A stretch of DNA of 63,365 nt, filler included, from Atractiella rhizophila (taxonomy: Eukaryota), in assembly GCA_021432655.1 (NCBI GenBank). It is 32 parts of 32 records of this genome, joined end to end, with 100 filler letters (N's around TTAATTAATTAA, not from the genome) between each part and the next. Parts side by side here need not be neighbours in the genome. Positions count along the whole stretch, not along the records: positions 30,149 to 32,036 come from MU272832.1; 31 more parts are not named here. One strand, written 5' to 3'. How positions within the stretch are numbered: the first letter of the stretch is position 1; every line of letters starts with the position of its first letter. A program made the translations under genes and the position numbers. Under the pieces are notes generated by a model. The model searched no databases, was not told the DNA's origin, and saw only the letters and a program-made list of their open reading frames with translations. Positions 103-62,126 of the stretch are shown one piece after another.

Positions 103-1931
103 CTTGAAGACTTACTCCGACTCCATTGGGATAACTCATTATCTAGTCAATAGATTATCTGAATTCGATAGATCTGAGGTTGAGTTCTACTGGCCACAAC
201 TTTGGTGAGTTGTTGTACATCAGGCTAGCTTTGGGATTTGAGACGCGTTGTCAGTCATTTGCTTGTTACGAGGCCAACAGAGTCTACAGCGTTAGAGACA
301 TTCATCATTCAAAGATGCGAAGAGTCTACACATACGGCTATGCTGGTAAAATCGTCTGCTCCTTAAACGACCCTTGACTCTTCTGAATTGCTTGAATTGC
401 GCAGACTCTTTGGTTTCTTCAAACCTACCTCCATGACTTCTCACAGTCTTCCTCTCGCTCGTCTCTCAATCCTAGCGACAGTCCCTCCTTCGTCATTACG
501 CGAAGAGCTTTCAACAAAGTCCAACACATCATCTTTTCCGATCCAGATGTCAGCGATTTTCTGCCGCCAGGTGACGAAGACATTTACGCCCATCAAACAT
601 CTGCGGTCGCTTTACAAGCCCAAAAGCAGATTGGCTTTAAGGGAAAGATGAAGGAGAAGCTTGCTCCCAAAGCTGCGCCAGTGACAGTCGGCATTGGTAT
701 CATGGCCGGATCCATTGGAATGCCCAAACTTGCAGGCAGCGGACAGCTAGCACTCGACCAAGCGAAGAAACATTGGGGAGATGGACAGTTCATCTTGGAG
801 AAGGAGGAGGCGGATGGATCGGAGCAGAAGGAAATAGAGAGCGAAGAGGATTCTCCTCCTCGCGGTCAACCAACCGTCTCATCGATTTTCAGCACTATTC
901 CGAAACCTAAAATACTTCAAAAGAAATCCATCAAAGATTCCCCATCCTCCCATTCAGAGGTACCTCCCAAACCCATTTCTTACATTCCCGGAGCCCGACT
1001 GACAAGCGATTACGCCATATACCAATCTCAGAGCACATCCAGCCTGCCCAACAAGCCCCGAACTTCTGCGCCAATTGAACGTTCTGCACTTTCCCCCACT
1101 TCTCCTGACTCACCTACTACAACGAAGCAGGATAGCAATACCAAGACTTCTGCCCACTTGGGCAGGTCGCCATCGAGCTCGCAGTTGCCTCTTAAAACAG
1201 GACCATCGTTTTCACTTTCTTCATTGCCCAACGCTAGTCTAAACCCCTACATGAAATCACATTCTCAGCTCTCATCATCGCACTTGGGGAAGAACGGTCA
1301 ACGACTTCCCAAGGCATACCTTGCTGCCCTTTTGCGTTTGCAGGCTTGCCGGAAACAACTGAATCTTATTAACACATTACAGGACATTTCGACGAGGCTG
1401 GTTATCGTTCCAAAAAAGGCTCGCTTGTCTTCGCTTCGAGCAGAACTTACCGTGCTCAACCACAGCCTCCCCGTTGGAACCTGTATTGGGATGGATTGTG
1501 ATGGCGAAGGCAAGAATCCTGTGGAAGATGCATCATCGTCCAAGAATGGATATAGGCCGCACCACCGGATCATACGCATCGCTCCATCCGAAGCCGTGGT
1601 CCTCAATTCTGCAGACAGGGCACCATTTCTGATCATGGTTGAAGTTCTCGTCGATGACTTGGACTTTGATCCCGACCGAAGACAAAACGCAGAGGACCTA
1701 AGAGAGATAATCGGTTCAGTCAGCCGAGGATCGAGCACACTGGATCTCCGTACCGGGCGTTCACCTCTTCCTTCTCCCTCACCACATACACGATCACACA
1801 CTGCGGGTTCATACCTGGATGGTCCGGAACGGAACAGATCTGACGACTCAGAATCCTCTACAGACGCTTCGCCCCCCCTGCAAACGCAGGAGCGACGGAA
1901 CACAGACGCGACGGTGATCGGCCCCGCGAGC
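103..1931 (+). CDS. PIK1: Phosphatidylinositol 4-kinase III beta (Pik1), N-terminal/central part, multi-exon, 3'-truncated
   Basis: Spliced exons give LKTYSDSIGITHYLVNRLSEFDRSEVEFYWPQL / HLLVTRPTESTALETFIIQRCEESTHTAML / TLWFLQTYLHD (helical domain). The exon from 405 is open into ORF 648, which carries LRAELTVLNHSLP and HHRIIRIAPSEAVVLNSADRAPFLIMVEVL, typical of Pik1. Confidence 0.9.
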
Positions 1932-2031: not shown

Positions 2032-3135
2032 TTCCCTCTTGAAGGGGTATTCCTTCAAGGTGTCCTCCACACTCTCCCTGATAACTTCCCAATTAGCCTT
2101 TTTCAGGTTGAGTCTTCCTCGGTCCGCTGGTGGCTGTTTTTGGAGGTTGAAGGTGGTGAGGATGGGGAAGTGGTCAGAGCCGTGGTTCAACTCGGGGTCA
2201 TGGGATGTAACACATTTCTCTACTAGGTCATCAGCCTCTGCATTCAAAAACACGAGGTCTATGACTGTTTGAGATTCCCTCGACGCCCAGGTGACCACCC
2301 CTGGCTCCGACCTTAGCTCCATCCCTTCTTCCGTCAATCTCGCCAATAGCTCGTCAGCTTTCGCATCCCTTCGAAGATAGCCTTCTTGGTTCCAGAGATC
2401 GTGGTGGAGGTTGAAGTCACCCCCGATGTAAAGGAGGAAATTGCTCTCAGTGCTGAAATCAGAACAAATTTTAGTAATAAGGGGAAATAACACGGAGAAG
2501 GTTTCGGACATCAAATCTGCAGCGTTGTACACATTAAGAAAGACAAATGTATAAGATGGGAGAGTAATCTGAACTGCGGAGATTTCAGGGGCAGGAGAGA
2601 CGATTTGAGAGACAGAGCTGGCGGGAATGGAGGAGGAGTTGATGAGGATGGTGGATCTGGAGTTAGGGGACTGAGAAAAACGGTTCCAGCCGTGGTAAAA
2701 AGGAAGTGAATCGCCGGGTGTAATATAAGGTTCTTGAATAAGGAGAATATCGAAACGTGAATGAGCGGAAGATAAGAGAGAATGGAACGTTGGGGACGAC
2801 TTCTGCGTGTTGTATTGACAAACGCGAAGACGAGAAGGATGAAGAGAACTGAAGGAAGAGGACTCCCGTTCGCTTGAAAGGCTATCCCCATGATAAGAGA
2901 AATCAGCGCTAGGGGACTGCTGAGGGGAGGAAACAAGGAAAGGGTTGCAGAAGGAAGAGGGGAGGGAGGGGGGCGGGGAGGGCGATGGAGGAGGTCGTTG
3001 GTGATTGGTGGAGTAGGAGAGGGGTGAGAGGGATTGGGGACATCCGTTACAAAATGAGGGAGAAGAAGAATTATTCAAGAAAGAACTTAGCTGGTTAAGA
3101 GGTTGCTCCAGTATGGGTGAGGTGTCTCCGCTCAT
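2032..3135 (-). CDS. LINE ORF2, apurinic-like (APE) endonuclease domain (3'-partial, RT beyond contig end)
   Basis: Motifs QYN, ILLIQEP, NVY, GDFNLHHDLW, IDLVF and SDHFPI, followed by NLKKANWE. Confidence 0.93.
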
Positions 3136-3959
3136 TTCGCATAGAACCGAGAGGAGCCCACCTGGATTCTGTGCGAAAGTCTTGCATTGTTAATCACCTC
3201 ACACTCCATACCTTTGCAAAGAGCATTGTGTTCTGTGGAATTACATAAAGAGCATTTTATAGGTCTATGGGAGCAGTTTTGCACGTCACGGCATGGATTG
3301 GGATTCGTGCAGGAAAGTGTACAAGATTTCGTAAAATGGGGACCGGCGCATACTCCACAGGAGACAGGAGCCTTGCACCTCGCGGCGGTGTGGCCAGGCT
3401 GTTGACACTTAAAACATCTCAGCACGTCACGGATTGACTTTTCCACCGTATACGCTTTCCCGTCGATGACGAGACCGAATTCGATCAAGGCGTCCGCAGT
3501 CGAGGAGTGGTCGACTACTAGGATGAGGGAGGAGTGTGTCTTGACCTTCTCCTGTGAGGAGGCTGTTTGTTTCTTCGTTCGGCACCAGTTCATCTTGAGG
3601 ATGTGGTCACATAAGTTGAGATTGAAGGGTTCGATGCGACTACGAACCTCTTCCGGGTTATCGATGTCGAAGGAGGAGGGGACTGCATGAACAATGATTG
3701 GGTAAGTCTTACGTTTGATGGACCATCCACTTTCGAGGTGTGGTAACCACACCTCTTGGGATTCGATCGCAAGTTGTACTTCACTGGCATAATAAAAGTG
3801 CAGTCTAAGGTCGCCGCTCTTGAGCCTCTGAGCGGCGCGGATTCTTAGATGAGGCTTCATCTTCGCTGCTATCCTCTCCTCCCTAGGTGTCTTTTCATAG
3901 ACTTCGCTAGGGATGTTCTTTGTCCTGAAGATGTCGTTGAAGGTGGCGACAATCTTTCG
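3132..3959 (-). CDS. LINE ORF1 gag-like nucleic-acid-binding protein (5'-partial)
   Basis: LKSGDLRL motif plus knuckles CFKCQQPGHTAARC, CGVCAGPHFTKSC and CSLCNSTEHNAL..C. Confidence 0.88.
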   Translation of the reverse strand, partial: RKIVATFNDIFRTKNIPSEVYEKTPREERIAAKMKPHLRIRAAQRLKSGDLRLHFYYASEVQLAIESQEVWLPHLESGWSIKRKTYPIIVHAVPSSFDIDNPEEVRSRIEPFNLNLCDHILKMNWCRTKKQTASSQEKVKTHSSLILVVDHSSTADALIEFGLVIDGKAYTVEKSIRDVLRCFKCQQPGHTAARCKAPVSCGVCAGPHFTKSCTLSCTNPNPCRDVQNCSHRPIKCSLCNSTEHNALCKGMECEVINNARLSHRIQVGSSRFYAK

Positions 3960-26169: not shown

Positions 26170-28059
26170 TTGGGACGAGGTAACTTTCTGCTCTTGGAAG
26201 AGGCAAATCCTGAGCGAAAGGCGCGCAGGCACATTTTGGGAAATTCGGCGCATACTACCTCAACCGCACATTCTATTTTGATGTACACCCTCCGCTAGGG
26301 AAAATGCTTGTTGGACTTGCAGGAGCCCTGTCTGGTTTCAATGGCGCATACGACTACCCTTCCGGCCAGACTTATCCTTCCCATGTCCCCTTCAAGATGA
26401 TGAGGATATTGATGGCGCTGCCTGGTGTCATGATGGTCCCCCTTGCGTGGGGCACTACTGGAGCTCTTGGATTCACACGTTGGGCCAGGCATCTTGTCAC
26501 GACCATGGTTCTGTGTGGTATGTACTTACTGTTAGGAATCCTGACAATCCTTTGAAAACGCTCTTTCAGATATTGCTTGGACCGTCATCTCTCGCTTCGT
26601 GCTGCTGGACTCAATGCTTCTATTCTTCACGAGCACTACAACGTTCTGCCTAACTATGTTTCACACTTGTCAAAACATGTGAGTGATAAAACACTTCCCT
26701 GATGTTCAAGCTAACGATTCGCTCTAGCCCGTTTGACGAAGAATGGTGGCTTTGGTTAATTTTGACTGGCGTCTCCATAGGCTGCGTGATAAGGTCCGTT
26801 TTAAGTGTTGTCGCCTCAATCTCCAACCAATGATGATTTAGTGTCAAGTGGGTGGGATTCTTTGTCACTGCTGTCGTAGGAGTGTACACCATACTGGATT
26901 TGTGGGATAAATTTGGCGACCTCCGAATGCCAGTTGTAAGTGTTCGTGTCCAGAGTGTACATTTGTACTGATGATGCCTAGCGTGTATACTTTCGTCACT
27001 GGGTAGCACGAATAATGTGTCTCATTGTCCTTCCTCTCTCAATCTACATCCTTTGCTTCAAAGTACGCCACAAAATCTCTCTCTAGTAAATGTCTAAGCA
27101 TAGAATTAGATTCATTTCTTGATATTGGATCGGTCTGGCCCGGGAGATGCTCAGATGAGTTCCTTATTCCAAGCAAATCTTAGGGGAAATGCATTCGCAA
27201 AAAATCCGCTAGGTATGCGCAATAATGCCTGTCCCTATTGCTAGCTAATCTGCTGACTCAGAACCTGCTTTTGGATCGAAAATTACTCTCAAAAACATGG
27301 GTTATGGCGGCGGTTTACTGCACTCGCACGTCCAAACGTACCCTTCAGGCTCTCAGCAGCAACAGGTTACGTGCTATCACTACAACGATGCGAACAACGA
27401 ATGGATTATCACCCCACGCTGGGAGGATCCTGCCATTGATCCTCATGGAGAACTGCGGTACCTCAAGGATCTAGACTTTGTCCGCCTGGTCCACAAACAA
27501 ACTGGGCGAAATCTCCACTCTCACTCTGTCGTTGCCCCAGTCACGAAGCTCAACAACGAAGTCTCCTGCTATGGTAACGCGACTATCGGCGACTCGAACG
27601 ATTATTGGAAAGTGCACGTTGTGGATGACATGCTGAGAGGGAGGAAGAAGAATGTCGATCGTATCCACAGTCTCACCACAAGGCTCAGGTTCCAACATGT
27701 CAATTCGGGCTGTTGGCTGCGGGCTGCGAATGCTGTACTTCCTCAGTGGGGTTTCAAGCAAGTAGAGGTGTCCTGTGACAAAACCAACAATCCTAATGAC
27801 GAGCATACCTATTGGAACATAGAGAGTCATTCTAATGATCGATGTACTTCATCTCCTTTCACATCTCGATTCCTTCTGACTGATGGTTCATTGCAGTACC
27901 CGCTGGTGATATCAAGCTCTATCGTTCCCCGTTTTGGCGAGATTTTTTGCATCTCAACGTAGCTATGTGGACGTCAAATAACGCTTTGATCCCTGACGCG
28001 GACAAGGAGGATAATCTTGCTTCGAGTGCTTGGGATTGGCCCTTCCTCTATAAAGGCAT
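26170..28059 (+). CDS. PMT2: Dolichyl-phosphate-mannose protein O-mannosyltransferase, PMT2 subfamily (internal, multi-exon)
   Basis: [64 protein letters not shown], and MIR repeats [36 protein letters not shown]. Confidence 0.95.
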
Positions 28060-30148: not shown

Positions 30149-32036
30149 TTGAGATCGCCTGTCTTGTGTCCCTCGGTTCTGGCATTACGCCTGCCATCAA
30201 GTTGGGCCACACTCGAGATGATGTTGAGCGAGCATTGGAGGCGATAATCATGGATTGCTCAAGGGTTTCGAACGAGGTGAAGGCGATGATGCAAGAGCGG
30301 AGGACGGGGCATTGTTACCATCGTTTCTCGGTCGATACGTTTGGAGATTTCAAATGGCAGGAGTGGTGGCGAAAGAATGATGCCGTAGGCGGCACGAAGG
30401 CTTACATGGAAGCGATGAAGCATGAAGTGTTGAGTGTTGCTCAATCGCTGGCGAAAGGTATATGCTTCGTCATTGGTAATTATATGCTAACGTTCTGCTC
30501 GGTAGACCATAAAGATCGTGTCGCAGTGCACAGGAAGATCGCTTTACCTCCTCTAGCGGCTTGTTACGGAAGAGAAGAGGAAGTGGAGAAAGCAATAGAG
30601 TTCATCCTTACCGACAAGAAGCACCTTGCTATCATTGGTGGCGCAGGGAACGGCAAATCTACCGTTGCACTAGAAGTCCTACATGCAGACAGAATCAAGA
30701 ATACCTTTAGGACAGCCATGGAGGGTAAGCCAGAAGACTTTCGCTTTTGGACACGATGCGACGCTTTCTCCGACTTCTCCTCTCTCTCAACCAATCTATG
30801 CAAGGAAGTTTTTGGATTGGCTCCTCCGCCTGGCGAAGATGAGCTTACTGCTGTCGCACACTATTTCAACACTCACAAGTGTCTCCTTATCCTCGATAAT
30901 TTTGAGAACCCCGCACGGTCTGACAAGAATAACCTACAGCCATTCTTCCAGGCTTTCTTTTCCAGACAATGCCCCTCTGGTTCTATTCTCGTTGTAGTAC
31001 ATCGAGGCCATCAAGTTGAGCATGTGAACTCGAAAGGTGTGAGATTTCAAGAACTGGTGATTGGAGGCTTGAGCGACGTCGGCGCGCTTGGTATGTTTGA
31101 ATATATGTACGTCGGCGGAAAAGGATACCGCCAGGATGACGACCAGCTAGTCGAGGACATTGTCGCCAAGCTGGATCGTCATGCCTTGTCTATCAAGCTC
31201 TTCATTCTTCGTGCGAATGAAGAATCCACCAAGGAGCTAAGGGTTTTGGTGGGTGAATGGGAGGCAAAGAAAACGAACGTACTCTGGAATGAAGACAGCG
31301 AAGAGACGCACACTCTGGCAACTTCGATCTCCTTCTCGTTCGATTCGCCTCTGCTCAAGAAGAACGAGGACCTCAGTGCTTTTATCCTTGCCCTTCTTTC
31401 TTGGACCCCTGATGGTCTTCTGGCTGACGACATTATCGCCTTTGGCAATAACTCCAGCCTTCCCCACTCAGAGGATTCTGCTGTGCTTGTCACCTCAATC
31501 TTAAAAGTCGGACTTGCTGAAAATGTTGATGATACTCTTACACACACCTCACGATTGCGCATGCTGGCCCCAATTCGTGAATATATCAACCGTTTGGTGT
31601 TGGGTCCTCTTCCTCCTTTCAAAGTCACTGCTTTATCGCTCAATCCCTTGACTGAAGGTCTCATTGAGAAGGCTGGTAAAAGTTTTCGACAGTTTGAAGA
31701 TGATGCTGAACGGATCGGACTGTTGACTTTTCGCAACGATTTTCCAAACCTTGAACACATACTTCTAGCTGCCTTCAAACATCTCAAAGATCCAACGATG
31801 GGAATCAATTTCATCATCAAAATTTGGAGATTTCTATATCTTCAAAGGCTCCTCTCAGCGGCATTGATCCAGAGTGCTTTATCCTGCAAGAAGCTTACAT
31901 CACCTCCAGCAATCACAGCCGAATTGAACAGGGTTCTTGGGTTATGTTTCCAACAGAAAGGGAACCCACAACAGGCACTGAAACAGTTTGAGGAGGCAAA
32001 GCAGCTGTATCTGGTGGTGGAAGATCGGCAAGGCCT
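30149..32036 (+). CDS. NLR-like STAND protein: patatin-like C-terminal part + NB-ARC-type NTPase + TPR start (both ends truncated)
   Basis: IACLVSLGSG and YHRFSVD..WQEW (patatin C-terminus); CYGREEEV; Walker A GGAGNGKS (30637-30660); Walker B LLILDNFE (about 30883-30906); LDRHALSI; LRMLAPIREY; TPR-like LGLCFQQKGNPQQALKQFEEAKQLY. A probable in-frame 48-nt intron lies at 30458-30505. Confidence 0.85.
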
Positions 32037-53753: not shown

Positions 53754-55603
53754 GTAACACTTCATTGTAAACTACATTATCTGTTTGCTTGTTTTCTTCT
53801 CCTTGCTTTGTTTTGACCAATACTCGTAAATTGTTTGCGTTTGAAACCCGTGAAAGACCAACATAAAGCTGCCCATGAGAGAAAGGAGAAGACTCTAAGT
53901 ACAAACCCACATGTCCAACAGATTGTCCTTGCACTTTATTCAGAGTTAAGGCAAACGCTAAGCGCACAGGGAATTAAAAGCACCGGAATTGAAAAGGAAG
54001 CTGGTTTGATACTGCACTGTCAATGCCAATTCAAGGAATGAGAACTGATTCGCCACTGTGTGTACCTGTAATGATGGTTGCTTCGATGACTCGTCGGAGA
54101 AGCTGGTGACAATGAGCCGCGTGCCGTTGCACAGGCCAGCAGATGGATTGAGATTTCGCAGAAGAATGATGGGTACACCGGTCTTGAGGTGTAAACAATG
54201 CGGAGGGAATACAGAGATCTCCAGGGTATTCAGGTACTCGACAGAGAAGCGATTTCTGAAATCTCCCTCGTCATCTATAATTTGATCTGTACTATAATAT
54301 ACCCGATCTCCTATGGATTCGAACCACTGAATCAAGTGATCGTTGATGCCATCCACATGATGTGGGCATGTGGTAGACCTATCTTCTGACATTCAATGAC
54401 CCAGACATATCTGATAACCCTTCCAAAGATCTGTCATACCACTAAATCCTTGATGTACTCCAGAGCCTTCAGTCGAAAAACCCTTGAAACCAAATCTGGT
54501 CGATCCTCTGGTTTTTGTCCTGGTAGGACAGCTTCCGTGATCTCCGCCCAGTGTGGGTTGCAAGTGAAGGTTGTAAAGATATTTGGGGGTCCTTTGGCAC
54601 CAACTATAGTCATTGCATCCTGGAACAGCTGATTCATTGAACATGGACTGCCAGTGAAACTTGATGGTAATATAGTCCGCCTCCCGATATCTTCTGAAGA
54701 ATAGCCTTCTGCAAGGGCATCCGTAAGACCTTGATACACCTCGGCTCGAAGAATAGACTTGATTGAACAGCAGATAGCGGAGTCGATTCGCCTCAATTTG
54801 AGCATAAGCATCGACTACCAATTCTTGCAGTAGCCGACCACCGTAGAGAGGGAGTGAGAATATATCATTTCGTTGATGCGACATGTAAGAATAGAACTCC
54901 ATTTGGCTTGACACATTGTCGAACCCCAGAATTACCAACTTGCATGCCGTCATCATTGAAGTGCTCTCGCTCGCGAGGAGGAAGATCTGCAGGCAGGTCT
55001 CGATACGGAATCTGCGGATGCCATCCTTGGTCCCCATATGGAAACAGAAGAGGAAAACAAAGTGGAAGATAATTTGAGTTGAGCTCATTGACACGCTGTA
55101 AGTTGCTACCAGTCATGGTTGCCCTGAGCTGGATGACAATATCTCTGGCCACTCCATATTCTTCTCTGTTACCATCTCCTACCTCACTACAGCAACTTCA
55201 CTGGCTACAGGAATGTTGTAGCGTCTTGGGTCCCTATCTCGTGGGGCGACTGTGCGAAGATGTAGTGTTGTAGTGGGATCCTGTTCCATTCTTTCTTTTA
55301 CAAATTTGTAGATCCTGGGATATGGGTTGACATGGAAGAGTATAGCCTGAAGGTCTTCAAGCGTCCTACGATTCAGTGATATTGAAGTGTTGCCAACTCT
55401 TTGTTCAGTCTGTACAGCTGAATCTGTAATGTAGACCTGTGCAAATGTTTCACACCCTTCTTGTTGTGGTAAAAGAGTGCCAATAAGGTGACAGAGCTCT
55501 CCCTGAATTTTGAAGGAGTAGGGACCATGTCCAGGAATTGATACGTGGCGGACGCCTAAGGATGTAAATGCAAAAGCATTATTGAATATCCTGATATGCT
55601 CTC
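53754..55603 (-). mobile_element. Helitron RepHel remnant with large internal deletion
   Basis: Rep motifs: NNAFAFTSLG, FPLLFPYGDQGW, GRLLQELVVDAY, ILPSSFTGSP, FTTFTCNPHW, DRPDLVSRVF, ECQKIGLPHAHI. Pif1 C-terminal motifs: PPH.L.LK.G.PIILLRNL..GLCNGTRL, FALTLNKVQGQS, FSHGQLYVGLSRV. Stops and frameshifts are present. Confidence 0.95.
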
Positions 55604-55703
55604 NNNNNNNNNNNNNNNNNNNNNNNNNNNNNNNNNNNNNNNNNNNNTTAATTAATTAANNNNNNNNNNNNNNNNNNNNNNNNNNNNNNNNNNNNNNNNN
55701 NNN

Positions 55704-56290
55704 CGAAGGTATTCATCGAAATCTGTTGAGGAGTAGGCGCCTTCTTTGTCCTCCCTGAATCTCTTGATTTTCCTTCCAGTCAAGGTCTCCATCATAGCTT
55801 TGTACTCCTTAAAGCGTTGAGGTGCTTCTGACTTCTTCCTGAGAAAAGCAATCGTCCAGTGACTTGTTGCCTCGTCTATAAACGTCACCCAATAGCGAAA
55901 TCCTTCTCTTGAAGCAACAGGGAGTGGTCCATGAAGATCTGAGCTGATCCTCCCTAAAATTTCCGTCTCCCTATTCTCTGCAGCCTTGTTGTAGATCCTA
56001 TGCTGCTTCCCAGTGATGCAGGGCTCACAGATGGGGTCAGGAGCGTCTTCTGAGTCCAGAATCATTACTTTCACGAGTCCTTTCTTCAGCATTCGCTTTA
56101 CATCTTCATGATTCAAGTGGGCAAGTCTCCTGTGCCACAGGGAAGCGTTTAGAGGGGTAGTGGAGGCATGTGCAACGAATTCTGAGGTCATGAGCGTTCT
56201 TCCATCGATGATGGCACTCATGCTTCCTCTCCTGTGGTCAACGGTCGCTAAGAAGCAGAGATTTCCAGCCTTGAGGAAGCGTACTCTGCT
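55704..56290 (-). mobile_element. Ty1/copia pol fragment (GAG-pre-integrase + integrase N-half), open frame
   Basis: LWHRRLAHL, CEPCITGKQHR, SDLHGP, YWVTFIDE, FLRKKSEA and IKRFRED. Confidence 0.95.
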
Positions 56291-56760
56291 AAGAGGTGAA
56301 GGAAGCCAAAGTCAAAGGTCAGAATTCGCTGGAGAGACCAGTTATGCAGAAGATGATGCCATTAGTTGCCAGAAAGCTGGGACTGACTAGCTTATCGATA
56401 CAGGAGCAACTTTATCAATGACTCCGCACCAGTACTTCAAATCCTATTGAAAACATGTTGTACCTGTCAGAGTTGCTAATCGAAAAGTGATCTGGTCAAC
56501 TGCAATTGGAGAGGCGGTAATTGAGGTAAAATTGAAGGATGGAAAGTTAAAGAAGGTCACCATTCACAATGTCCTGCACGTTCCCAAGCTCTGTATCAAT
56601 CTGCTATCAGTTTGTAAGCTTACTACTGTCTTCGAAGGTTATGACTGTGACCATTAATAGGAGCAGAGTACGATTCCTTAAGGCCAGAAATATCTGCTTT
56701 ACAGCAACAGTTGAACATAGGAGAGGAGCATGAATGCTATCATCAATGGAAGAATACTCA
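56291..56760 (+). mobile_element. Ty1/copia protease-region fragment, degenerate, inverted relative to the adjacent integrase fragment
   Basis: D*LIDTGATLSMT (WLIDSGA motif), VRVAN and NVLHVPKLCINLLSV, with several stops. Confidence 0.85.
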
Positions 56761-57649
56761 CCTAGCTAGACCACCCCCTTTTTCAGCATCATCCTGCAAT
56801 CATAGCCATCCATCATACAATCATTGTCTCCAAGCCTAACTTGAAATATTTCATCATCCATTATCTTTTGAATTCTGGGTCAAATGCTACATAATCAAAT
56901 TTTATCCAAATGAAGTGGTGCAGCCTTATACCTCTATGACCAGAAGCATTTCAATCCAAGCCCATACCATGATGGATATGACTTGACAGATTCATCCATG
57001 TGTTTTGACACAGGCGGTTGATGTGATGTGGTTGTGAGGATAGAGGCGATTCACTTAGCACGAACAAGGCAGTGAGCACAGCTATTGCCGTGGCTGCCTT
57101 GTGATAGTAAGTAACGGTAGGCGGCAAGAGCTGAAGACATGACAAGGACACGGAAACTGCCAAGCAAACACACTATGTAACGATTAGTAAGAATAAGGAG
57201 CAAGGCAAGGGAGGGAGCACATACACCACTAGGATGAGGAAAGGTGTCAAACATAACAAGCAGAAAAGGGGGACATATAAAGAAAGAGGCAGAAGCTGTT
57301 ACAAGGGAAATATAGAAATTAGTCAAGGTTACAATAAATGGATACAGAAAATTAAGAGTGCTATTCCACCCAGTGCAGTCTGAGTGGCAGCAGTGTTGTA
57401 AAGTGGCAGAACTGAGGCGGTCGGAGATATAACATCACATCCAAACAACCATGAACCAACTACTCCTAGCCTTAGATCCTTACAGCTATGCCCCATAATT
57501 CTGAATCCAGATTCTCAGTATGGCTGGACAGGGTGATCTGGTTGGCTGGNNNNNNNNNNNNNNNNNNNNNNNNNNNNNNNNNNNNNNNNNNNNTTAATTA
57601 ATTAANNNNNNNNNNNNNNNNNNNNNNNNNNNNNNNNNNNNNNNNNNNN

Positions 57650-59494
57650 GCTGACACTCTTCTTGTTGTGAGCAATGGGGGGAAGCTGCCAAGTAGAGTG
57701 GATATCCTAAGAGAACCAATCTGGATATCTCACTCCATTGGCAGTTCCAGAATGTTCCAGCATATTCCACCATTAACTCTCTTTACTACATGCCTGATAG
57801 AACCTTCTAGACCATTTGCCACATAATCCAGAATGTGAGTCATGCTCTATACACGAACCCTGACAATATGCCCCCACTCAGGACTGAGGCTCTGACCAGG
57901 TAAGGCAGTAAAGAATGTAAGTTGATGTCAAAGACCAGTAAGGGAATGTACGAACCGCCCATTGGGGCGGCCTACTACTATTTGGAATTACGGCACCCCA
58001 TCACTTTACCTGCTCAAGAGGGCACCGATTTGAGTTTCTAGTTTGAAGGGGCTCAGCATGAATATCTTCTCACCTGAGTGCTTGTGGATTCTTCATGTAA
58101 ACTCCTTGATAGTATCTTGAGCACTCTCCAAATCATCCCACTTCTTCATTGTTGGTTCTTCAATGGGATAGCCTTTCCACCTGACTCTGAACCAAAGGCC
58201 ATTGTATCGCCTTCTTGCTTCCAGAATCTCTTCCACCTCATATTCTGGCTCTTCTCCTTCCACTATAACTTCAGGTTCCAATCAATGGGATAAACGAATA
58301 TGTGGAGGAGCCTTTCAAACGAATGAGACATGAAATACCGGGTGGATGGACATGCTGTCTGGGAGAGTAAAGCGAACATTGATAGGAGATATGATTTGTT
58401 GAACAGAGAAGGGGCCAACCTATTTGTCATCGAGTTTCTTCATTAGACAAAGAGAAACAATATTCCTTGCATCCAGATAGACCAGGTCACCAATGTTGTA
58501 CTTGAGAGCATTGCCTTGTTTACGATCATAATGTTTTGTCATATCTTGAATAGCTTTCTCCAAAGCAGCCTGTGCTTCTTAATTTGGCTTCTTCATCCTT
58601 GAAAAGAACTAATCAGCTAATTCATTGAGAGTAGAAGGTCTGTCCACAAGGTTCATCCGTGGATCTTGATCAGTATTAAGTCTGAAAGGGTATGAGTCCA
58701 TCTTCTTCCACTTTCCACTCATCCTCTCTAGCTACCTTCTCATTTCCTTCTTTCGGTTCCTTAACTACCTTCATAACTACTTCATCCTGCTGTTCTATCC
58801 TTCAAATCCAATCTAAAAGCCTGTCTAACTCTTCACCCCCACCATCAAGACAGCAGCTGGACGCTCAGCGCTAAGAAAATACTTGCCCGGGAATCCACTG
58901 TTCAGCTGTGCATTTTTCTGATAAAAGGATAATCTCCTCATTGTCCTTGGAACCATCATCATGGTCAGCACATCGGGAGAAAGCATCTGGTTTGTCTGAG
59001 CTCTTCATGTTGGAGGATGAAGTTGAAGCGAGAAAGGTAGAGGAGCCAGTGAGCCTGTCTACAATTAAGCTTCTGAGGTTCCTTGAAGTACTGAAGTGCC
59101 TTGTGGTCTGTGACGACAGTGATAGGAATAGATTGACCTTTGAGGAGATAACACCATTCTTCCAGAGCTCGAACAATTGCCAGCATTTCTTTGTCATAAA
59201 TCTCATAGCTATGTTCAGCAGTGGAGAGAGATTTTGAGAGGAAGGCGATGGGGTGGTACTTGCCATTGTCCTTCTTCTGTAAGAGAATAGCACCAAGTAT
59301 AAAGCCAGAGCTGTCAGCTTTGATGAGGTAGGGTTTATCATCTTCTGGAAAAGACAGGACTGGTGCTGTAGTGACTACCTTTTTTAGATTGTCAAATGAC
59401 TGTTGTTGCTGTTGTTCCCAATGAAAGTTGACCCTCTTCTGAGATAGAGGGCAAGCGATAGACGAGAAATCCTTGATGCAGTGGCGATAGAATT
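57650..59494 (-). mobile_element. Ty3/gypsy chromovirus remnant: RT end, RNase H, deleted integrase, chromodomain, PPT and partial 3' LTR
   Basis: NFYR..IKDFS.IA.PL, TTAPVL, HPIAFLSKSL..YEIYDKEMLAIV, TDHKAL, GPF..IHPVFHVS and chromodomain YEVEEIL..VRWKGYP. The PPT-like TGAGTGGGGG (57871-57880) precedes the LTR start TGTCAGGG at 57865. Confidence 0.93.
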
Positions 59495-59594: not shown

Positions 59595-61060
59595 GCTGCC
59601 AGTTGCACAAACCTGATTTGACCAGGTCCTCGCGAAACTGGCGCAAGCTAGACTCGAGCTCTTTCACACGAATCTCGACCTCTTCCTGAAACTGCCTTGT
59701 TTCTTCCTCTCGTATGCGATCCATCTCTTCTCTAACTGCCACATCACGAAGTTCAGAATCCGTCAAAGTGGTAGGGCTTTCCAATAGAAACGATCTCATA
59801 GTCTCGCTCGAAGCCAGTGCATCATTCGCCAATAAGGAGTGGAGATATGCACGGAGAGTGAGCCTGTTCCTTTCTCGAGCGAGATTCGGCAGGTGTTTGT
59901 CGTGATGATGGTGTGTTGAGGCATTGGAGGAGAAGGCACCTGTGCTTGGTGGAGAGCTACTGATATCGCCTGGCATCAGATATTGAGAATCCTCAAACGC
60001 CTCGGATGTAGATGTCGGAAACTCTGATCTGCGAGGGGAAGGACCAGTCGACTGAGATCGAACTTCGACAGAGCGGCGGTCTTTCGGAGGCGGAGGTCGG
60101 ATGTCTGCTTCTGCATATTCGCTTCGTAGCTATAACATTAACACTACGATCAGGGAATCCTAGGCTCATTAGCAGGAGGCGCACCTCTTCTGACAATTTG
60201 AGAAAATCCCCATATCGTCGACTGACGTAAACCTCTCCATCCTTGCTCTTCGTGCGGATAATAAATTCTTCATGATGTTTGTTGCGAACTCTTCCCTTTG
60301 TCACAATGTTGCGCACGGTAACAACATTGACACTAAAACTCTGCTCGCTTTCGGAAGCGTCAGAGGAAAGCGCTCCGACATTGATCGACAGACTCTCCGT
60401 TTCGTAAACAGGCCCTGTCGACGCTTGATGCCGAGCTCCAAATGGGTGAGATGTACTAGTGACCCTGACGACTTCTTCTGCTCCATTGTTATCATTGACT
60501 TTGATAGCCGCAGAAACTATCAAGCCCAGATGCTTTTCCACCTTTCCGAACAGCCTGCGACGCTTGGTTGCCTCTTCTCTATCTTCGCTGCTCGAGATGT
60601 TGCGCGCGAAGAAGGAGTGAATGAAGGGCTGAACTTTGTGCGACCAGAAAGTTGGGCCACAATTCTTGAGAAATGGAAAGGTGACCACAAACTGATGGAA
60701 GATAAATCTGATCAGTGGAAGATCGGCTTGCTGCTCTCTCTCCCTTTGTTTCTCTTCTGCTGAAAGCTGTGGAGGATTAGGATTTGGTTGGCCATTGGGC
60801 AAGAATCTTGATTTTGGGAGAAATGGCGACCCAAACAGAAATAGGGCTTCTGAAGTAGCTACAGTGGATATTTCTCGTTGAATTTGCAGAGTGATCAGTT
60901 CTCGCTTGAGATAGTGTGCCCTAAGTGGGGTGAGCGCGTTGGGATCGGGATCCGCTATAGATGGCGCTTTGGTCTTTTCGGCAGCGCTTGACTTGAAATC
61001 CGAAACAAGGGACGGCGATGGGGGCGGTGGGCGAGTAGGTTTCACTGGCTGACTGGACAT
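59595..61060 (-). CDS. PX-domain protein with PX-associated (PXB) N-terminus, Ypr097w/Lec1-like, 3'-truncated
   Basis: LTPLRAHYLKRELI, LPLIRFIF..FV.TFPFL, EATKRRRL, VSRRYGDF, PPPPKD and LARERNRLTLRAYLHSLL. Confidence 0.88.
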
Positions 61061-62126
61061 TGCGTAGATCTGATAAACGAGGGGTCAATACACTGTTCAG
61101 CCAAAGTGTAACGTGCGTAGACTGAGAGTGCTTCGCCAAGAGATGTGCACTACTTCCCGCAGATACAAAAAGGGCATGAGCATACACGAATGGTAAATGG
61201 TAATCTGGCACGTATTGTTTACAGCCAGCCATCCAATCGATCATCTCGTGAGCGTCAACTGACAACTCACAATGAAAGGTACAATGGAAGTTCCCTCTTT
61301 ACATTAAACCGTTCTTATATCTCTGCAGCGCAACAATGTCAAGCGAATAGAAACCCTGATGGAAACCGCGGTGCAAACGTCAGAGATGGACTGGTGTTGT
61401 AGTTTGAAACTAATAAGACCAACTTTTTGTNNNNNNNNNNNNNNNNNNNNNNNNNNNNNNNNNNNNNNNNNNNNTTAATTAATTAANNNNNNNNNNNNNN
61501 NNNNNNNNNNNNNNNNNNNNNNNNNNNNNNACATCTCAATGTATATATACATATGTAAAGGCACTGCCATAAACTGTAACGTATGTTGTTTCTTGAAACA
61601 CGTAAGATATCTAGATCATGAAGCAACAAAGGGAATACTCGGAAATAAGATATACTGAGTAGTACTAATGAGAAAGCATAATAAGGCGAAAATGGAGACG
61701 GTGCAGACCAGCGAAATGTATAATGTTTGCTGAGCGGCGATGCGTGTGAGAAAGGGGAAAGCGGCAGACAGTGCGGGCATGAGCAAAGCGACGTAAAAAC
61801 CATGATGATGTTCACCAAAAAACTGATGAAGGGACCTGCTGGTGCTGGGGGATTATGAAAAGTTCAGTAGATCTGATGGGATCATTCAGTTTCGTTTTCC
61901 CAGGTTGACAATGGTTGGTAGCATTAGGGTCACGCGGTCGAGCGGTGCAGACCCCAAGAAGTCACCACTTTTCCCATTACCTGAACTCGTACTGCAATAA
62001 CAATCGAGGACCCTACTTCGAATCATTATTTTCATGTAGGTCTCAAAATTACACTTGATCATCGACTGATAATGCCTTAGGGGCGACAGAAGAGCTAGAG
62101 TCAAACAGGATCAGTATCCATTGACC

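What the first reader, a model, noticed from the sequence alone, without database searches (positions are those of the whole stretch)
30149..32036. Patatin-STAND-TPR NLR-type immune receptor
Seen: patatin C-terminal motifs (CLVSLGSG, YHRFSVD), an intact P-loop (GGAGNGKS / LLILDNFE), a helical region and the first TPR-like repeat, all in one stop-free frame. Known: patatin-NB-ARC-TPR proteins (Neurospora PLP-1, Podospora PaPlp1) mediate allorecognition cell death in ascomycetes, and bacterial antiphage STAND proteins have the same effector-NTPase-sensor layout. Inference: this is a phospholipase-armed NLR in a probable basidiomycete, where such receptors are poorly characterised. The contig breaks as the TPR array begins, consistent with highly similar repeats.
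Basis: partly seen in the sequence, partly recalled or inferred. Interest (0 to 1): 0.7.

Follow-up and report, generated by a model that had tools for sequence, protein, structure and literature searches.

The report
Fragment of fungal patatin-type NLR gene
This short contig holds the middle of a fungal immune-receptor-like gene (end of a lipase-type domain, an ATP-driven switch, start of a repeat sensor) of a design already known from cell-death genes of moulds, here in a little-studied relative of the rust fungi.

Summary
The finding is one whole 1888-bp contig; the window is 32 unrelated contigs joined by linkers. A 48-nt in-frame intron (30458-30505) is read through. Residues 1-102 are the last third of a patatin fold. 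The catalytic motifs would lie upstream, off the contig. Residues ~130-490 are a STAND NTPase with intact Walker A and B. Pfam's only hit above its cutoff is NACHT, but structure and relatives place it with NB-ARC (Apaf-1 and NRC1 Z 26; NLRP3 and NLRC4 Z 16). The last 41 residues are the first unit of a 40-residue TPR array, and public contigs loop back on it. The closest relatives are at least 19 paralogue clusters in Atractiella rhizophila (40-54% identity). A housekeeping gene on another contig is 91% identical to that species, so the organism is probably an atractiellomycete. The architecture matches Neurospora PLP-1, so this is a new member of a known kind. One caveat: 7 of 7 Atractiella paralogues that cover the site lack the catalytic Asp, so "phospholipase-armed" is unproven.

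The parts
30149..32036 (+). Whole 1888-bp contig: an internal fragment of one gene, cut at both ends
   Evidence: Bounded by N/TTAATTAATTAA linkers. One frame of 628 codons without a stop. tblastn of 5 homologues hits only this contig in the window.
30151..30457 (+). Partial exon encoding the C-terminal third of a patatin fold (residues 1-102, plus the first base of codon 103)
   Evidence: 54% identical to A. rhizophila P0022 residues 302-403, which follow its Pfam Patatin domain (90-290). The P0022 model matches potato patatin 1oxw at Z 31.5 over model residues 82-412 and CapV at Z 29.3 over 84-405, so this stretch lies inside the fold. Pfam finds no family in it.
30160..30183 (+). CLVSLGSG: the strand that follows the catalytic-Asp loop in patatins (canonical S-[ILV]-G-T-G)
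   Evidence: Aligns with CapV 'ILSIGT' and with S[ILV]GTG in 15 of 17 non-Atractiella patatin proteins aligned.
30316..30336 (+). YHRFSVD: the conserved Y-[FY]-R-F-N-V strand of patatin domains in NLRs
   Evidence: Same column as YFRFNV in 15 of 17 non-Atractiella sequences. It is a strand (357-361) in the P0022 model.
30458..30505 (+). 48-nt in-frame intron (GTATAT...CTAAC...TAG), read through in the open frame as GICFVIGNYMLTFCSV
   Evidence: The homologues that span the site all have a 16-residue gap exactly there. Contigs in two public runs skip exactly these 48 bases with GT..AG ends (X1 side 20; X5 side 78). Coordinates checked.
30506..30537 (+). Start of the second partial exon: linker between the patatin fold and the NTPase (with the intron read-through, model residues 103-127 have pLDDT below 50)
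30538..31620 (+). NB-ARC-type STAND NTPase module (nucleotide-binding domain, helical domain, winged helix; residues ~130-490)
   Evidence: Model pLDDT mostly above 90. VIA Z 25.7 to the NRC1 NB-ARC domain (316 of 342 residues, model 134-490) and 25.9 to Apaf-1, against 14-16 for NLRP3, NLRC4 and NOD2. Pfam NACHT scores 31.2 bits (cutoff 26.7) and NB-ARC 15.7 bits (cutoff 23.5).
30637..30660 (+). Walker A / P-loop, GGAGNGKS
   Evidence: G163, G166, G168 and K169 are at least 90% conserved in 140 relatives.
30883..30906 (+). Walker B, LLILDNFE (family consensus LLVLDNxETPW)
   Evidence: D249, N250 and E252 are at least 90% conserved.
31621..31911 (+). Helical arm between the NTPase and the repeats (residues 491-587)
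   Evidence: Helices 497-577 in the model. The Apaf-1 alignment runs on through it to residue 628.
31912..32034 (+). First TPR unit (residues 588-628); the contig ends inside it
   Evidence: Pfam TPR_1 at 596-619 (E 2.4e-4), TPR_2 and TPR_12, all below cutoff. Helix pair 586-602 / 606-622. Aligns to repeat units of P0002.
31975..32036 (+). The part of the TPR unit shared with further repeat copies, where the assembly breaks
   Evidence: 'Goes back' joints 32028>31978, 32030>31987 and 32036>31975 (62 back plus 58 between = 120 nt). Loose ends before 31975 in X1, X2 and X5. Summed contig depth 522.6 against 8-10 (X1) and 42786 against 412-742 (X2). Homologues have a 40-residue period.

Best explanation
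The contig is an internal piece of a gene for a fungal NOD-like receptor of the patatin / NB-ARC / TPR type, from an atractiellomycete (Basidiomycota, Pucciniomycotina). Shown: (a) the first 102 residues are the last third of a patatin fold; (b) a 48-nt intron follows; (c) then comes an NB-ARC-type STAND NTPase with intact Walker A and B, a helical arm, and the first unit of a 40-residue TPR array that continues beyond the contig; (d) the gene belongs to a paralogue-rich family. Inferred from what is reported for Neurospora PLP-1 and for NB-ARC proteins in general: in the resting state the repeat arm holds the ADP-bound NTPase closed. When the TPR array binds a ligand or an altered self protein, nucleotide exchange and oligomerisation follow. 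This clusters the N-terminal patatin domains, which act on membranes and kill or wall off the cell. Whether this gene's patatin domain is an active lipase is open.
For: The frame is open for 628 codons and holds all the motifs. Homologues: the best is A. rhizophila P0002, 40% identity over query residues 1-622 (E 2e-134), which continues into a TPR_12 array. P0019 and P0022 have Pfam Patatin directly upstream of the stretch that matches query residues 1-204 and 1-102 (50% and 54%). BLASTP to the full-length Patatin/NB-ARC/TPR protein P0287 of Flammula alnicola is collinear, query 1-486 = 239-722, E 2e-21; its Patatin domain is at 23-224 and NB-ARC at 399-637. A profile of the Atractiella patatin-plus-tail stretch with the window's exon 1 finds 95 long proteins, led by fungal patatin NLRs. 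Fold: the P0022 model matches patatin 1oxw at Z 31.5 through residue 412, which corresponds to window residue ~111. The window's own model matches Apaf-1 (Z 25.9), NRC1 NB-ARC (25.7) and NRC2 (25.0), and Foldseek's top hits are plant NB-ARC NLRs. Of the 54 next-closest relatives, NB-ARC is found in 35, NACHT in 12 and TPR_12 in 46, and their profile hits ZAR1 at E 8.7e-15. Intron: gap in homologues and a spliced form in runs X1 and X5. Upstream continuation: a 156-nt loose end before 30150 in X1, whose 30 shown letters read in frame as a close match to the Atractiella ESKRIWG stretch. Taxon: the PMT2 fragment on contig 14 is 91% identical to A. rhizophila, and the next named species is at 77%. 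PLP-1 mechanism: passages of PMC12881547.
Against: No catalytic patatin motif is on the contig, and Pfam Patatin does not hit it. The 7 Atractiella paralogues that cover the site have [AL]-[VIM]-G where canonical sequences have D-[GA]-[GA], and the 3 that cover the Gly-rich motif have DNGGI[CA]T where canonical sequences have DGGGxRG, so the effector may not be a working lipase. The best full-length relative, P0002, starts only 14 residues upstream of the window's first residue and has no patatin core. Pfam's only above-cutoff call for the NTPase is NACHT. A profile of the narrow clade finds only P-loop noise in the PDB. Only one TPR unit is on the contig. Whether runs X1 (kind unknown) and X5 (guessed RNA) are RNA is not established, so the 'spliced form' could be an intron-less DNA copy. 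No function was tested.
Confidence: 0.85

Rival explanations
1. The gene is as described, but its patatin-like domain is a pseudo-enzyme or has a re-wired active site. It would work as a membrane-binding or oligomerising module, or as a decoy, and not as a Ser-Asp phospholipase.
For: 0 of 7 A. rhizophila paralogues that cover the site have the catalytic Asp. The loop is two residues shorter, and the oxyanion-hole motif lacks its Arg in the 3 that cover it. Among the non-Atractiella patatin proteins aligned, 15 of 17 keep D-[GA]-[GA] and DGGGx[RK]G (the HMMER alignment to CapV puts Ala opposite the Asp). The window's tail is 45-54% identical to those paralogues.
Against: The window's own upstream sequence is unknown. 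The nucleophile elbow GTSTGG is kept in the 3 paralogues that cover it (P0016, P0019, P0022), and the fold is predicted with confidence, which argues for selection on some activity. An Asp five residues before the aromatic residue is present in 6 of 7 and might substitute. Gene models in that genome are often fragmentary (lengths 98-731 aa).
Confidence: 0.4
2. The contig is a dead or truncated copy, either a pseudogene or an N-terminally truncated paralogue without a patatin core, from a birth-and-death NLR family.
For: Of the 19 related A. rhizophila cluster representatives, 17 are 731 aa or shorter (98-731 aa). P0002 starts inside the patatin tail. One X2 contig carries a 1-base deletion at 30240. 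Many contigs 90-99% alike point to several close copies.
Against: There is no stop or frameshift in 628 codons (chance ~7e-15). Walker A and B are intact. A form with the intron removed exists in two runs. One X1 contig continues upstream, in frame over the 30 letters shown, with patatin-like sequence.
Confidence: 0.12
3. The NTPase is a NACHT domain, which would make this an unusual patatin-NACHT-TPR combination.
For: Pfam NACHT scores 31.2 bits (cutoff 26.7, E 2.4e-7), while NB-ARC scores 15.7 bits, below its cutoff of 23.5.
Against: VIA Z is 25-26 for Apaf-1, NRC1 and NRC2 against 14-16 for NLRP3, NLRC4 and NOD2. NB-ARC is found in 35 of 54 relatives against 12 for NACHT. The family profile hits ZAR1. 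A bona fide NB-ARC protein, P0287, also scores NACHT above the cutoff (30.1 bits, against NB-ARC 41.1), so the NACHT hit is a cross-match.
Confidence: 0.04
4. It is a bacterial STAND or antiphage (Avs-like) gene present as a contaminant.
For: Some of the next-closest relatives are metagenomic or bacterial TPR proteins. The effector-NTPase-sensor layout is shared with bacterial systems.
Against: A spliceosomal-type intron with a CTAAC branch site is present. The 13 best relatives that cover the tail are all from the fungus A. rhizophila. Composition is like the other contigs.
Confidence: 0.01

Closest known systems
Neurospora crassa PLP-1 and its counterparts (Podospora HET-Z1/PaPLP1, Cryphonectria vic2, Botrytis Bcvic1): patatin / NB-ARC / TPR NLRs that control allorecognition cell death
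   Same: The domain order and domain kinds are the same: the patatin fold directly precedes an NB-ARC-type NTPase with a P-loop, followed by TPRs. The conserved SxGTG and YxRF strands are present. Cell death by PLP-1 needs the patatin activity and the P-loop, and PLP-1 self-associates (passages of PMC12881547).
   Different: Sequence similarity to ascomycete patatin NLRs is low: BLASTP gave 8 hits among 40 fungal patatin NLRs, at 22-28% identity, and none to the Podospora pseudoanserina protein P0323. I did not have the PLP-1 sequence itself. The host is a pucciniomycotine basidiomycete. The nearest relatives lack the catalytic Asp. No sec-9 partner or linkage can be examined on a 1.9-kb contig.
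Atractiella rhizophila paralogue family (for example KAH8928192.1 = P0022 and KAH8914288.1 = P0019, both 'FabD/lysophospholipase-like protein'; and the 'TPR-like protein' P0002)
   Same: These are the closest sequences, at 40-54% identity, with the same patatin tail, NTPase and helical arm and a 40-residue TPR period.
   Different: There is no orthologue-level match: the housekeeping PMT2 fragment is 91% identical between the two organisms, but this gene is at most 54%. P0002 carries a C-terminal BAG domain and lacks the patatin core.
Agaricomycete Patatin/NB-ARC/TPR proteins (Flammula alnicola P0287, Mycena filopes P0286)
   Same: Collinear alignment from the patatin tail through the NTPase, and the same Pfam architecture.
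   Different: 24% identity. These keep the canonical DGGGxRG, GTSTGG and D-[GA]-[GA] motifs.
CapV / CapE (bacterial CBASS patatin phospholipases) and potato patatin Pat17
   Same: These are the nearest solved structures to the effector domain of the relatives (Z 26-31.5; sequence E 1e-8). They too are effectors switched on by an upstream sensor.
   Different: They are stand-alone enzymes activated by a cyclic nucleotide (CapV, CapE) or a storage protein (Pat17), not fused to an NTPase. They keep the Ser-Asp dyad.
Apaf-1, plant NRC1/NRC2/ZAR1 NB-ARC modules, and MalT / PH0952 STAND-TPR proteins
   Same: The NTPase has the same fold (Z 21-26). PH0952 and MalT also carry a helical repeat sensor.
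   Different: Identity is only 11-17%, and the effector and sensor domains differ.

Membership tests
Fungal patatin / NB-ARC / TPR NLR (PLP-1 type) | A patatin fold directly N-terminal to the NTPase in the same polypeptide | tested here: met
   The window holds the last ~102 residues of the fold. The homologues P0019 and P0022 have Pfam Patatin just upstream. The fold of P0022 matches patatin through the part homologous to the window. Alignment with P0287 is collinear. Only the C-terminal third is on the contig.
Fungal patatin / NB-ARC / TPR NLR (PLP-1 type) | Catalytic patatin motifs: the Gly-rich oxyanion hole (DGGGxRG), the GxSxG serine and the D-G-G/A aspartate | not testable with these tools
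   The motifs lie upstream of the contig. No genome is held, and two metagenome scans found nothing. The one read-laying run showed only 30 of 156 upstream letters. In the closest relatives the Asp is absent in 7 of 7.
Fungal patatin / NB-ARC / TPR NLR (PLP-1 type) | An NB-ARC-type STAND NTPase with intact Walker A and B | tested here: met
   GGAGNGKS and LLILDNFE are present. Z 25-26 to Apaf-1, NRC1 and NRC2. NB-ARC in 35 of 54 relatives. The Pfam NB-ARC model itself is below its cutoff on this sequence (15.7 against 23.5 bits).
Fungal patatin / NB-ARC / TPR NLR (PLP-1 type) | A C-terminal TPR array | tested here: met
   One unit is on the contig. Public contigs loop back on it with a 120-nt period and continue into TPR-like sequence. 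The homologues P0002 and P0015 carry 40-residue arrays. The number of units in this gene is unknown.
Fungal patatin / NB-ARC / TPR NLR (PLP-1 type) | Triggers cell death on recognising a polymorphic partner (SEC-9), usually encoded nearby | not testable with these tools
Pfam NACHT (PF05729) NLRs | An HMM score above the gathering cutoff | tested here: met
   31.2 bits against a cutoff of 26.7; 31.7 bits on exon 2 alone.
Pfam NACHT (PF05729) NLRs | Closer to NACHT proteins than to NB-ARC proteins in fold and in family context | tested here: not met
   NLRP3, NLRC4 and NOD2 give Z 14-16 against 25-26 for NB-ARC proteins. NACHT is found in 12 of 54 relatives against 35 for NB-ARC. The NB-ARC protein P0287 shows the same NACHT cross-hit.
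Pfam Patatin (PF01734) | An HMM match on the sequence itself | tested here: not met
   No Patatin hit at E up to 1 on the fragment, or at E up to 0.01 on exon 1 alone. In the relatives the Pfam match ends 11-14 residues before the point that aligns with the contig's first residue, so this failure is expected and says nothing about the full gene.
Bacterial antiphage STAND (Avs-like) systems | A prokaryotic gene without introns | tested here: not met
   A spliceosomal-type intron is present, and the nearest relatives are fungal.

The most novel reading that the evidence does not exclude
Atractiellomycetes carry an expanded, fast-evolving clade of PLP-1-like NLRs. Their patatin effector has lost the catalytic Asp and the oxyanion-hole Arg, while keeping the serine elbow and the fold. 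That would make it a pseudo-lipase, or a re-wired lipase, used as a cell-death or signalling module. The window's gene would be a member of this clade. It would also be an NLR family in the Pucciniomycotina, a subphylum in which the 2014 survey found no NLRs.
Probability: 0.3. Interest if true: 0.55.

Novelty: new member of a known kind. Interest (0 to 1): 0.3.

Why it matters
Patatin/NB-ARC/TPR receptors are among the few fungal NLRs with a demonstrated function (PLP-1). This fragment adds a member from the Pucciniomycotina. The 2014 fungal NLR survey (PMC4986451, passages read) found no NLRs in that subphylum. My two searches of the held library found nothing else that treats NLRs in that subphylum or in Atractiella: the only other paper returned, a poplar review, was seen as a search listing only. 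The gene belongs to a paralogue-rich, fast-diverging family with near-identical 40-residue TPR cassettes, the pattern expected of a receptor under diversifying pressure. The only real surprise is in the relatives, not on the contig: their lipase centre looks degenerate. If that holds for this clade, it asks whether patatin-NLR killing always needs lipid hydrolysis. As it stands the contig is incomplete and the design is well catalogued.

Tried and rejected
(1) Own-genome search: no genome is held for this window.

(2) NCBIfam gave only weak P-loop matches to ABC transporters.

(3) PDB sequence searches with exon 2 alone and with a 7-sequence clade profile gave only noise or P-loop matches. The wider profile and the fold searches were needed.

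(4) I looked for the missing 5' and 3' parts.
- tblastn of 5 homologues against the window hit only this contig.
- Pfam on 20 ORFs from the other contigs found no Patatin, NB-ARC or TPR.
- The search for related loci in metagenome contigs matched 136 pattern stretches, but none was a relative.
- An exact 23-mer from the 5' end had 0 matches in metagenome contigs.

(5) Earlier findings of this scan: nothing by sequence or for this genome.

(6) Rfam found no RNA family on the contig. Tandem Repeats Finder found only a trivial 7-nt repeat. The 220-codon antisense ORF at 31182-31841 has no Pfam family, and I take it to be a shadow of the coding strand.

(7) The first structure job was too large and was not counted; I re-ran it with 89 sequences.

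(8) Parts of the contig without contig cover in runs X5 and X6 are not used as evidence of anything.

(9) Small shares of the stretch in soil and root metatranscriptomes (X6-X24) are not used to name a habitat.

Full report
WHAT THE WINDOW IS. The 63,365-base window is not one locus. It consists of 32 small contigs, 1931 down to 1835 bp, sorted by length and joined by N...TTAATTAATTAA...N linkers (visible). The finding, 30149-32036, is exactly one of these contigs (1888 bp). The flanking sequence in the window therefore belongs to unrelated contigs, and the gene is cut at both ends. No whole genome is held for this window.

THE OBSERVATION. Frame +, 30151-32034, is open for all 628 codons. From the contig's base composition, the chance of that is about 7e-15. 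The last 41 residues look like a TPR (Pfam TPR_1, TPR_2 and TPR_12, all below their cutoffs).

A HIDDEN INTRON. Bases 30458-30505 are GTATAT...CTAAC...TAG, 48 nt and in frame, so the open frame reads through them as GICFVIGNYMLTFCSV. The best homologue aligns with a 16-residue gap exactly there. In the 16-sequence alignment that block is unique to the window's protein. Contigs of two public runs skip exactly these 48 bases with GT..AG ends: X1 with 20 letters on the shorter side, X5 with 78. X1's kind is unknown and X5 is only guessed to be RNA. The joined form therefore shows either splicing or an intron-less copy, and either way the 16 residues are not part of the protein.

THE FIRST 102 RESIDUES ARE THE END OF A PATATIN FOLD.
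- Pfam Patatin does not hit the fragment.
- A full HMMER search of 1.84 billion representatives gave 976 hits at E of 0.001 or better. The 13 listed hits whose best stretch covers the first ~100 residues are all from the fungus Atractiella rhizophila.
- Pfam on 16 of the top hits finds Patatin in 4, three of them above the cutoff. In P0019 Patatin is at 250-452 and window residues 1-204 match 465-648 (50%). In P0022 Patatin is at 90-290 and window residues 1-102 match 302-403 (54%).
- P0022's best matches in the PDB are the CBASS phospholipases CapV and potato patatin. The HMMER alignment puts the stretch equivalent to the window's first ten residues opposite CapV's ILSIGT strand.
- An AlphaFold model of P0022 (45-sequence alignment, mean pLDDT 77) matches patatin 1oxw at Z 31.5 (rmsd 3.1, 309 residues, model 82-412), CapV at Z 29.3 (84-405) and iPLA2-beta at Z 28.9. 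The fold thus runs through everything homologous to the window's exon 1.
- In a MAFFT alignment of 25 sequences, SLGSG and YHRFSV fall in the columns of the canonical S[ILV]GTG and YFRFNV motifs, which 15 of the 17 non-Atractiella sequences keep.
- The window's protein also aligns directly and collinearly with a full-length Patatin/NB-ARC/TPR protein of Flammula alnicola: residues 1-486 = 239-722, E 2e-21. This was one of 8 hits among the 40 fungal patatin NLRs tested (domains).
- One X1 contig runs on for 156 nt upstream of 30150. The 30 letters shown read in frame as a close match to the Atractiella ESKRIWG stretch.

THE NTPASE IS NB-ARC-LIKE, NOT NACHT.
- Pfam's only above-cutoff call is NACHT (31.2 bits, cutoff 26.7). 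NB-ARC scores 15.7 bits against a cutoff of 23.5.
- The model of the window's protein (89-sequence alignment, mean pLDDT 81.6, above 90 over most of 130-628) is closest to NB-ARC proteins. Foldseek's top hits are NRC2, NRC1, ZAR1, CED-4 and Apaf-1, with NOD2 at rank 33.
- VIA-align gives Apaf-1 Z 25.9 (435 aligned), the NRC1 NB-ARC domain Z 25.7 (316 of 342), NRC2 25.0, the STAND-TPR protein PH0952 22.4 and MalT 20.9. NLRP3, NLRC4 and NOD2 give 14-16.
- Among the 54 next-closest relatives, NB-ARC is found in 35, nSTAND1 in 24 and NACHT in 12. Their profile hits plant ZAR1 at E 8.7e-15.
- A clear NB-ARC protein, P0287, also scores NACHT above the cutoff. The NACHT call is a cross-match.
- Walker A (GGAGNGKS) and Walker B (LLILDNFE; family consensus LLVLDNxETPW) are intact and conserved.

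THE REPEAT END. Residues 588-628 form a helix pair that aligns with repeat units of P0002. From 31975 onward, public contigs behave as a repeat.
- There are 'goes back' joints 32028>31978, 32030>31987 and 32036>31975. In the last, 62 back plus 58 between gives 120 nt.
- Loose ends enter at 31975 in X1, X2 and X5.
- Contigs run on behind 32030 into sequence that reads as a further TPR unit.
- Summed contig depth in the last bin is 522.6 against 8-10 in X1 and 42,786 against 412-742 in X2. Depth of contigs is a crude measure, so I rely mainly on the joints.
- The homologues have a 40-residue period, and in P0015 units 40 residues apart are 76% identical on average, some almost fully.
The 5' end probably broke for a similar reason: many contigs 90-99% alike cover the patatin tail.

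ORGANISM AND FAMILY. A PMT2 (MIR domain) fragment on another contig of the window is 91% identical to A. rhizophila, and the next named species is at 77%. The organism is therefore an atractiellomycete (Pucciniomycotina), close to but not the same as that genome. The NLR fragment is at most 54% identical to any A. rhizophila protein, which fits fast birth-and-death evolution. At least 19 A. rhizophila cluster representatives are related, many of them short models. The wider NTPase family pairs the same switch with SIR2 (22 of 54), MLKL-like (5) or TIR (4) heads.

HOW IT LIKELY WORKS. By analogy with PLP-1, the TPR array senses a ligand or an altered self protein. The NB-ARC switch then exchanges nucleotide and oligomerises, and the clustered patatin heads cause membrane damage and cell death. 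The PLP-1 facts come from passages of PMC12881547: a patatin, NB-ARC and TPR architecture; death that depends on patatin activity and on the P-loop; binding of SEC-9; and self-association. All of this is inference here; only the architecture is shown.

THE CAVEAT THAT MATTERS. The catalytic motifs are not on the contig. In the closest relatives the centre looks degenerate. Where 15 of 17 non-Atractiella patatin proteins have [FY]-x-D-[GA]-[GA]...NNP, the seven A. rhizophila paralogues that cover the site have Y-[VI]-[AL]-[VIM]-G-NNNP, with no Asp and two residues fewer. The three that cover the Gly-rich motif have DNGGI[CA]T in place of DGGGxRG. The GTSTGG serine elbow is kept. An Asp five residues further upstream is present in 6 of 7 and might substitute. 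'Phospholipase-armed' is therefore unproven for this gene.

NOVELTY. The design is well catalogued. The 2014 survey (PMC4986451) lists Patatin as an NLR N-terminal domain that is 'almost invariably' paired with NB-ARC, notes highly conserved TPR repeats, and says it found no NLRs in the Pucciniomycotina (passages). A 2022 update (PMC9815663, passages) does not mention the Pucciniomycotina. Searches for 'Atractiella' with 'NLR' and for 'Pucciniomycotina' with 'NOD-like receptor' returned only the 2014 survey and a poplar review, which I saw as a listing only. I did not look at the supplements of any of these papers, and they may list such genes. Verdict: a real but incomplete new member of a known kind, with modest interest.

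Noticed in passing
window 1-63365: The window is an artificial join of 32 contigs (1931 down to 1835 bp, sorted by length) with N/TTAATTAATTAA/N linkers. Any apparent synteny between neighbours is meaningless.
   Followed up: yes
relatives P0014, P0016, P0019, P0020, P0021, P0022, P0024 (A. rhizophila): All seven lack the patatin catalytic Asp: [AL]-[VIM]-G instead of D-G-G/A, in a loop two residues shorter. P0019, P0021 and P0022 have DNGG without the Arg in place of DGGGxRG. GTSTGG is kept in P0016, P0019 and P0022.
   Followed up: partly
relative P0002 (A. rhizophila, 1235 aa): The best full-length homologue has a BAG domain (PF02179, E 3.5e-9, residues 1128-1171) after its TPR array, and its model starts inside the patatin tail. 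This is either an odd NLR with a chaperone-cofactor tail or a mis-merged or truncated gene model.
   Followed up: no
window 27249-27959 (+): A MIR-domain fragment of protein O-mannosyltransferase PMT2, 91% identical to A. rhizophila, with the next named species at 77% (Microbotryomycetes). This places the organism.
   Followed up: yes
window 2032-3959 (-): A non-LTR retrotransposon piece: an endonuclease-reverse transcriptase domain (E 2.3e-16) and an upstream ORF with a CCHC zinc knuckle.
   Followed up: no
window 53754-59494: More mobile-element fragments on three contigs: Helitron_like_N (weak, 54396-55112), GAG-pre-integrase (55706-56311) and RT RNase H (58968-59492, E 6e-33).
   Followed up: no
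window 396-1931 (+): A 512-codon open frame that runs off the contig end, with no Pfam family at E of 0.001 or better.
   Followed up: no
window 59996-61084 (-): A PX-associated (PXB) domain protein fragment, E 1.5e-39.
   Followed up: no
window 30240 and 30149-32036 in runs X1, X2: Many contigs 90-99% alike lie on the stretch (X1: 33 / 20 / 24 in the 99+ / 95-99 / 90-95% classes; X2: 74 / 55 / 59). One X2 contig has a 1-base deletion at 30240. This suggests several close paralogues or alleles, at least one frameshifted.
   Followed up: partly
Pfam NACHT against NB-ARC on P0287 and on the window's protein: Pfam NACHT scores above its gathering cutoff on proteins whose fold and family are NB-ARC (P0287: NACHT 30.1 bits, NB-ARC 41.1 bits). 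This is a trap for automatic NLR typing in basidiomycetes.
   Followed up: partly
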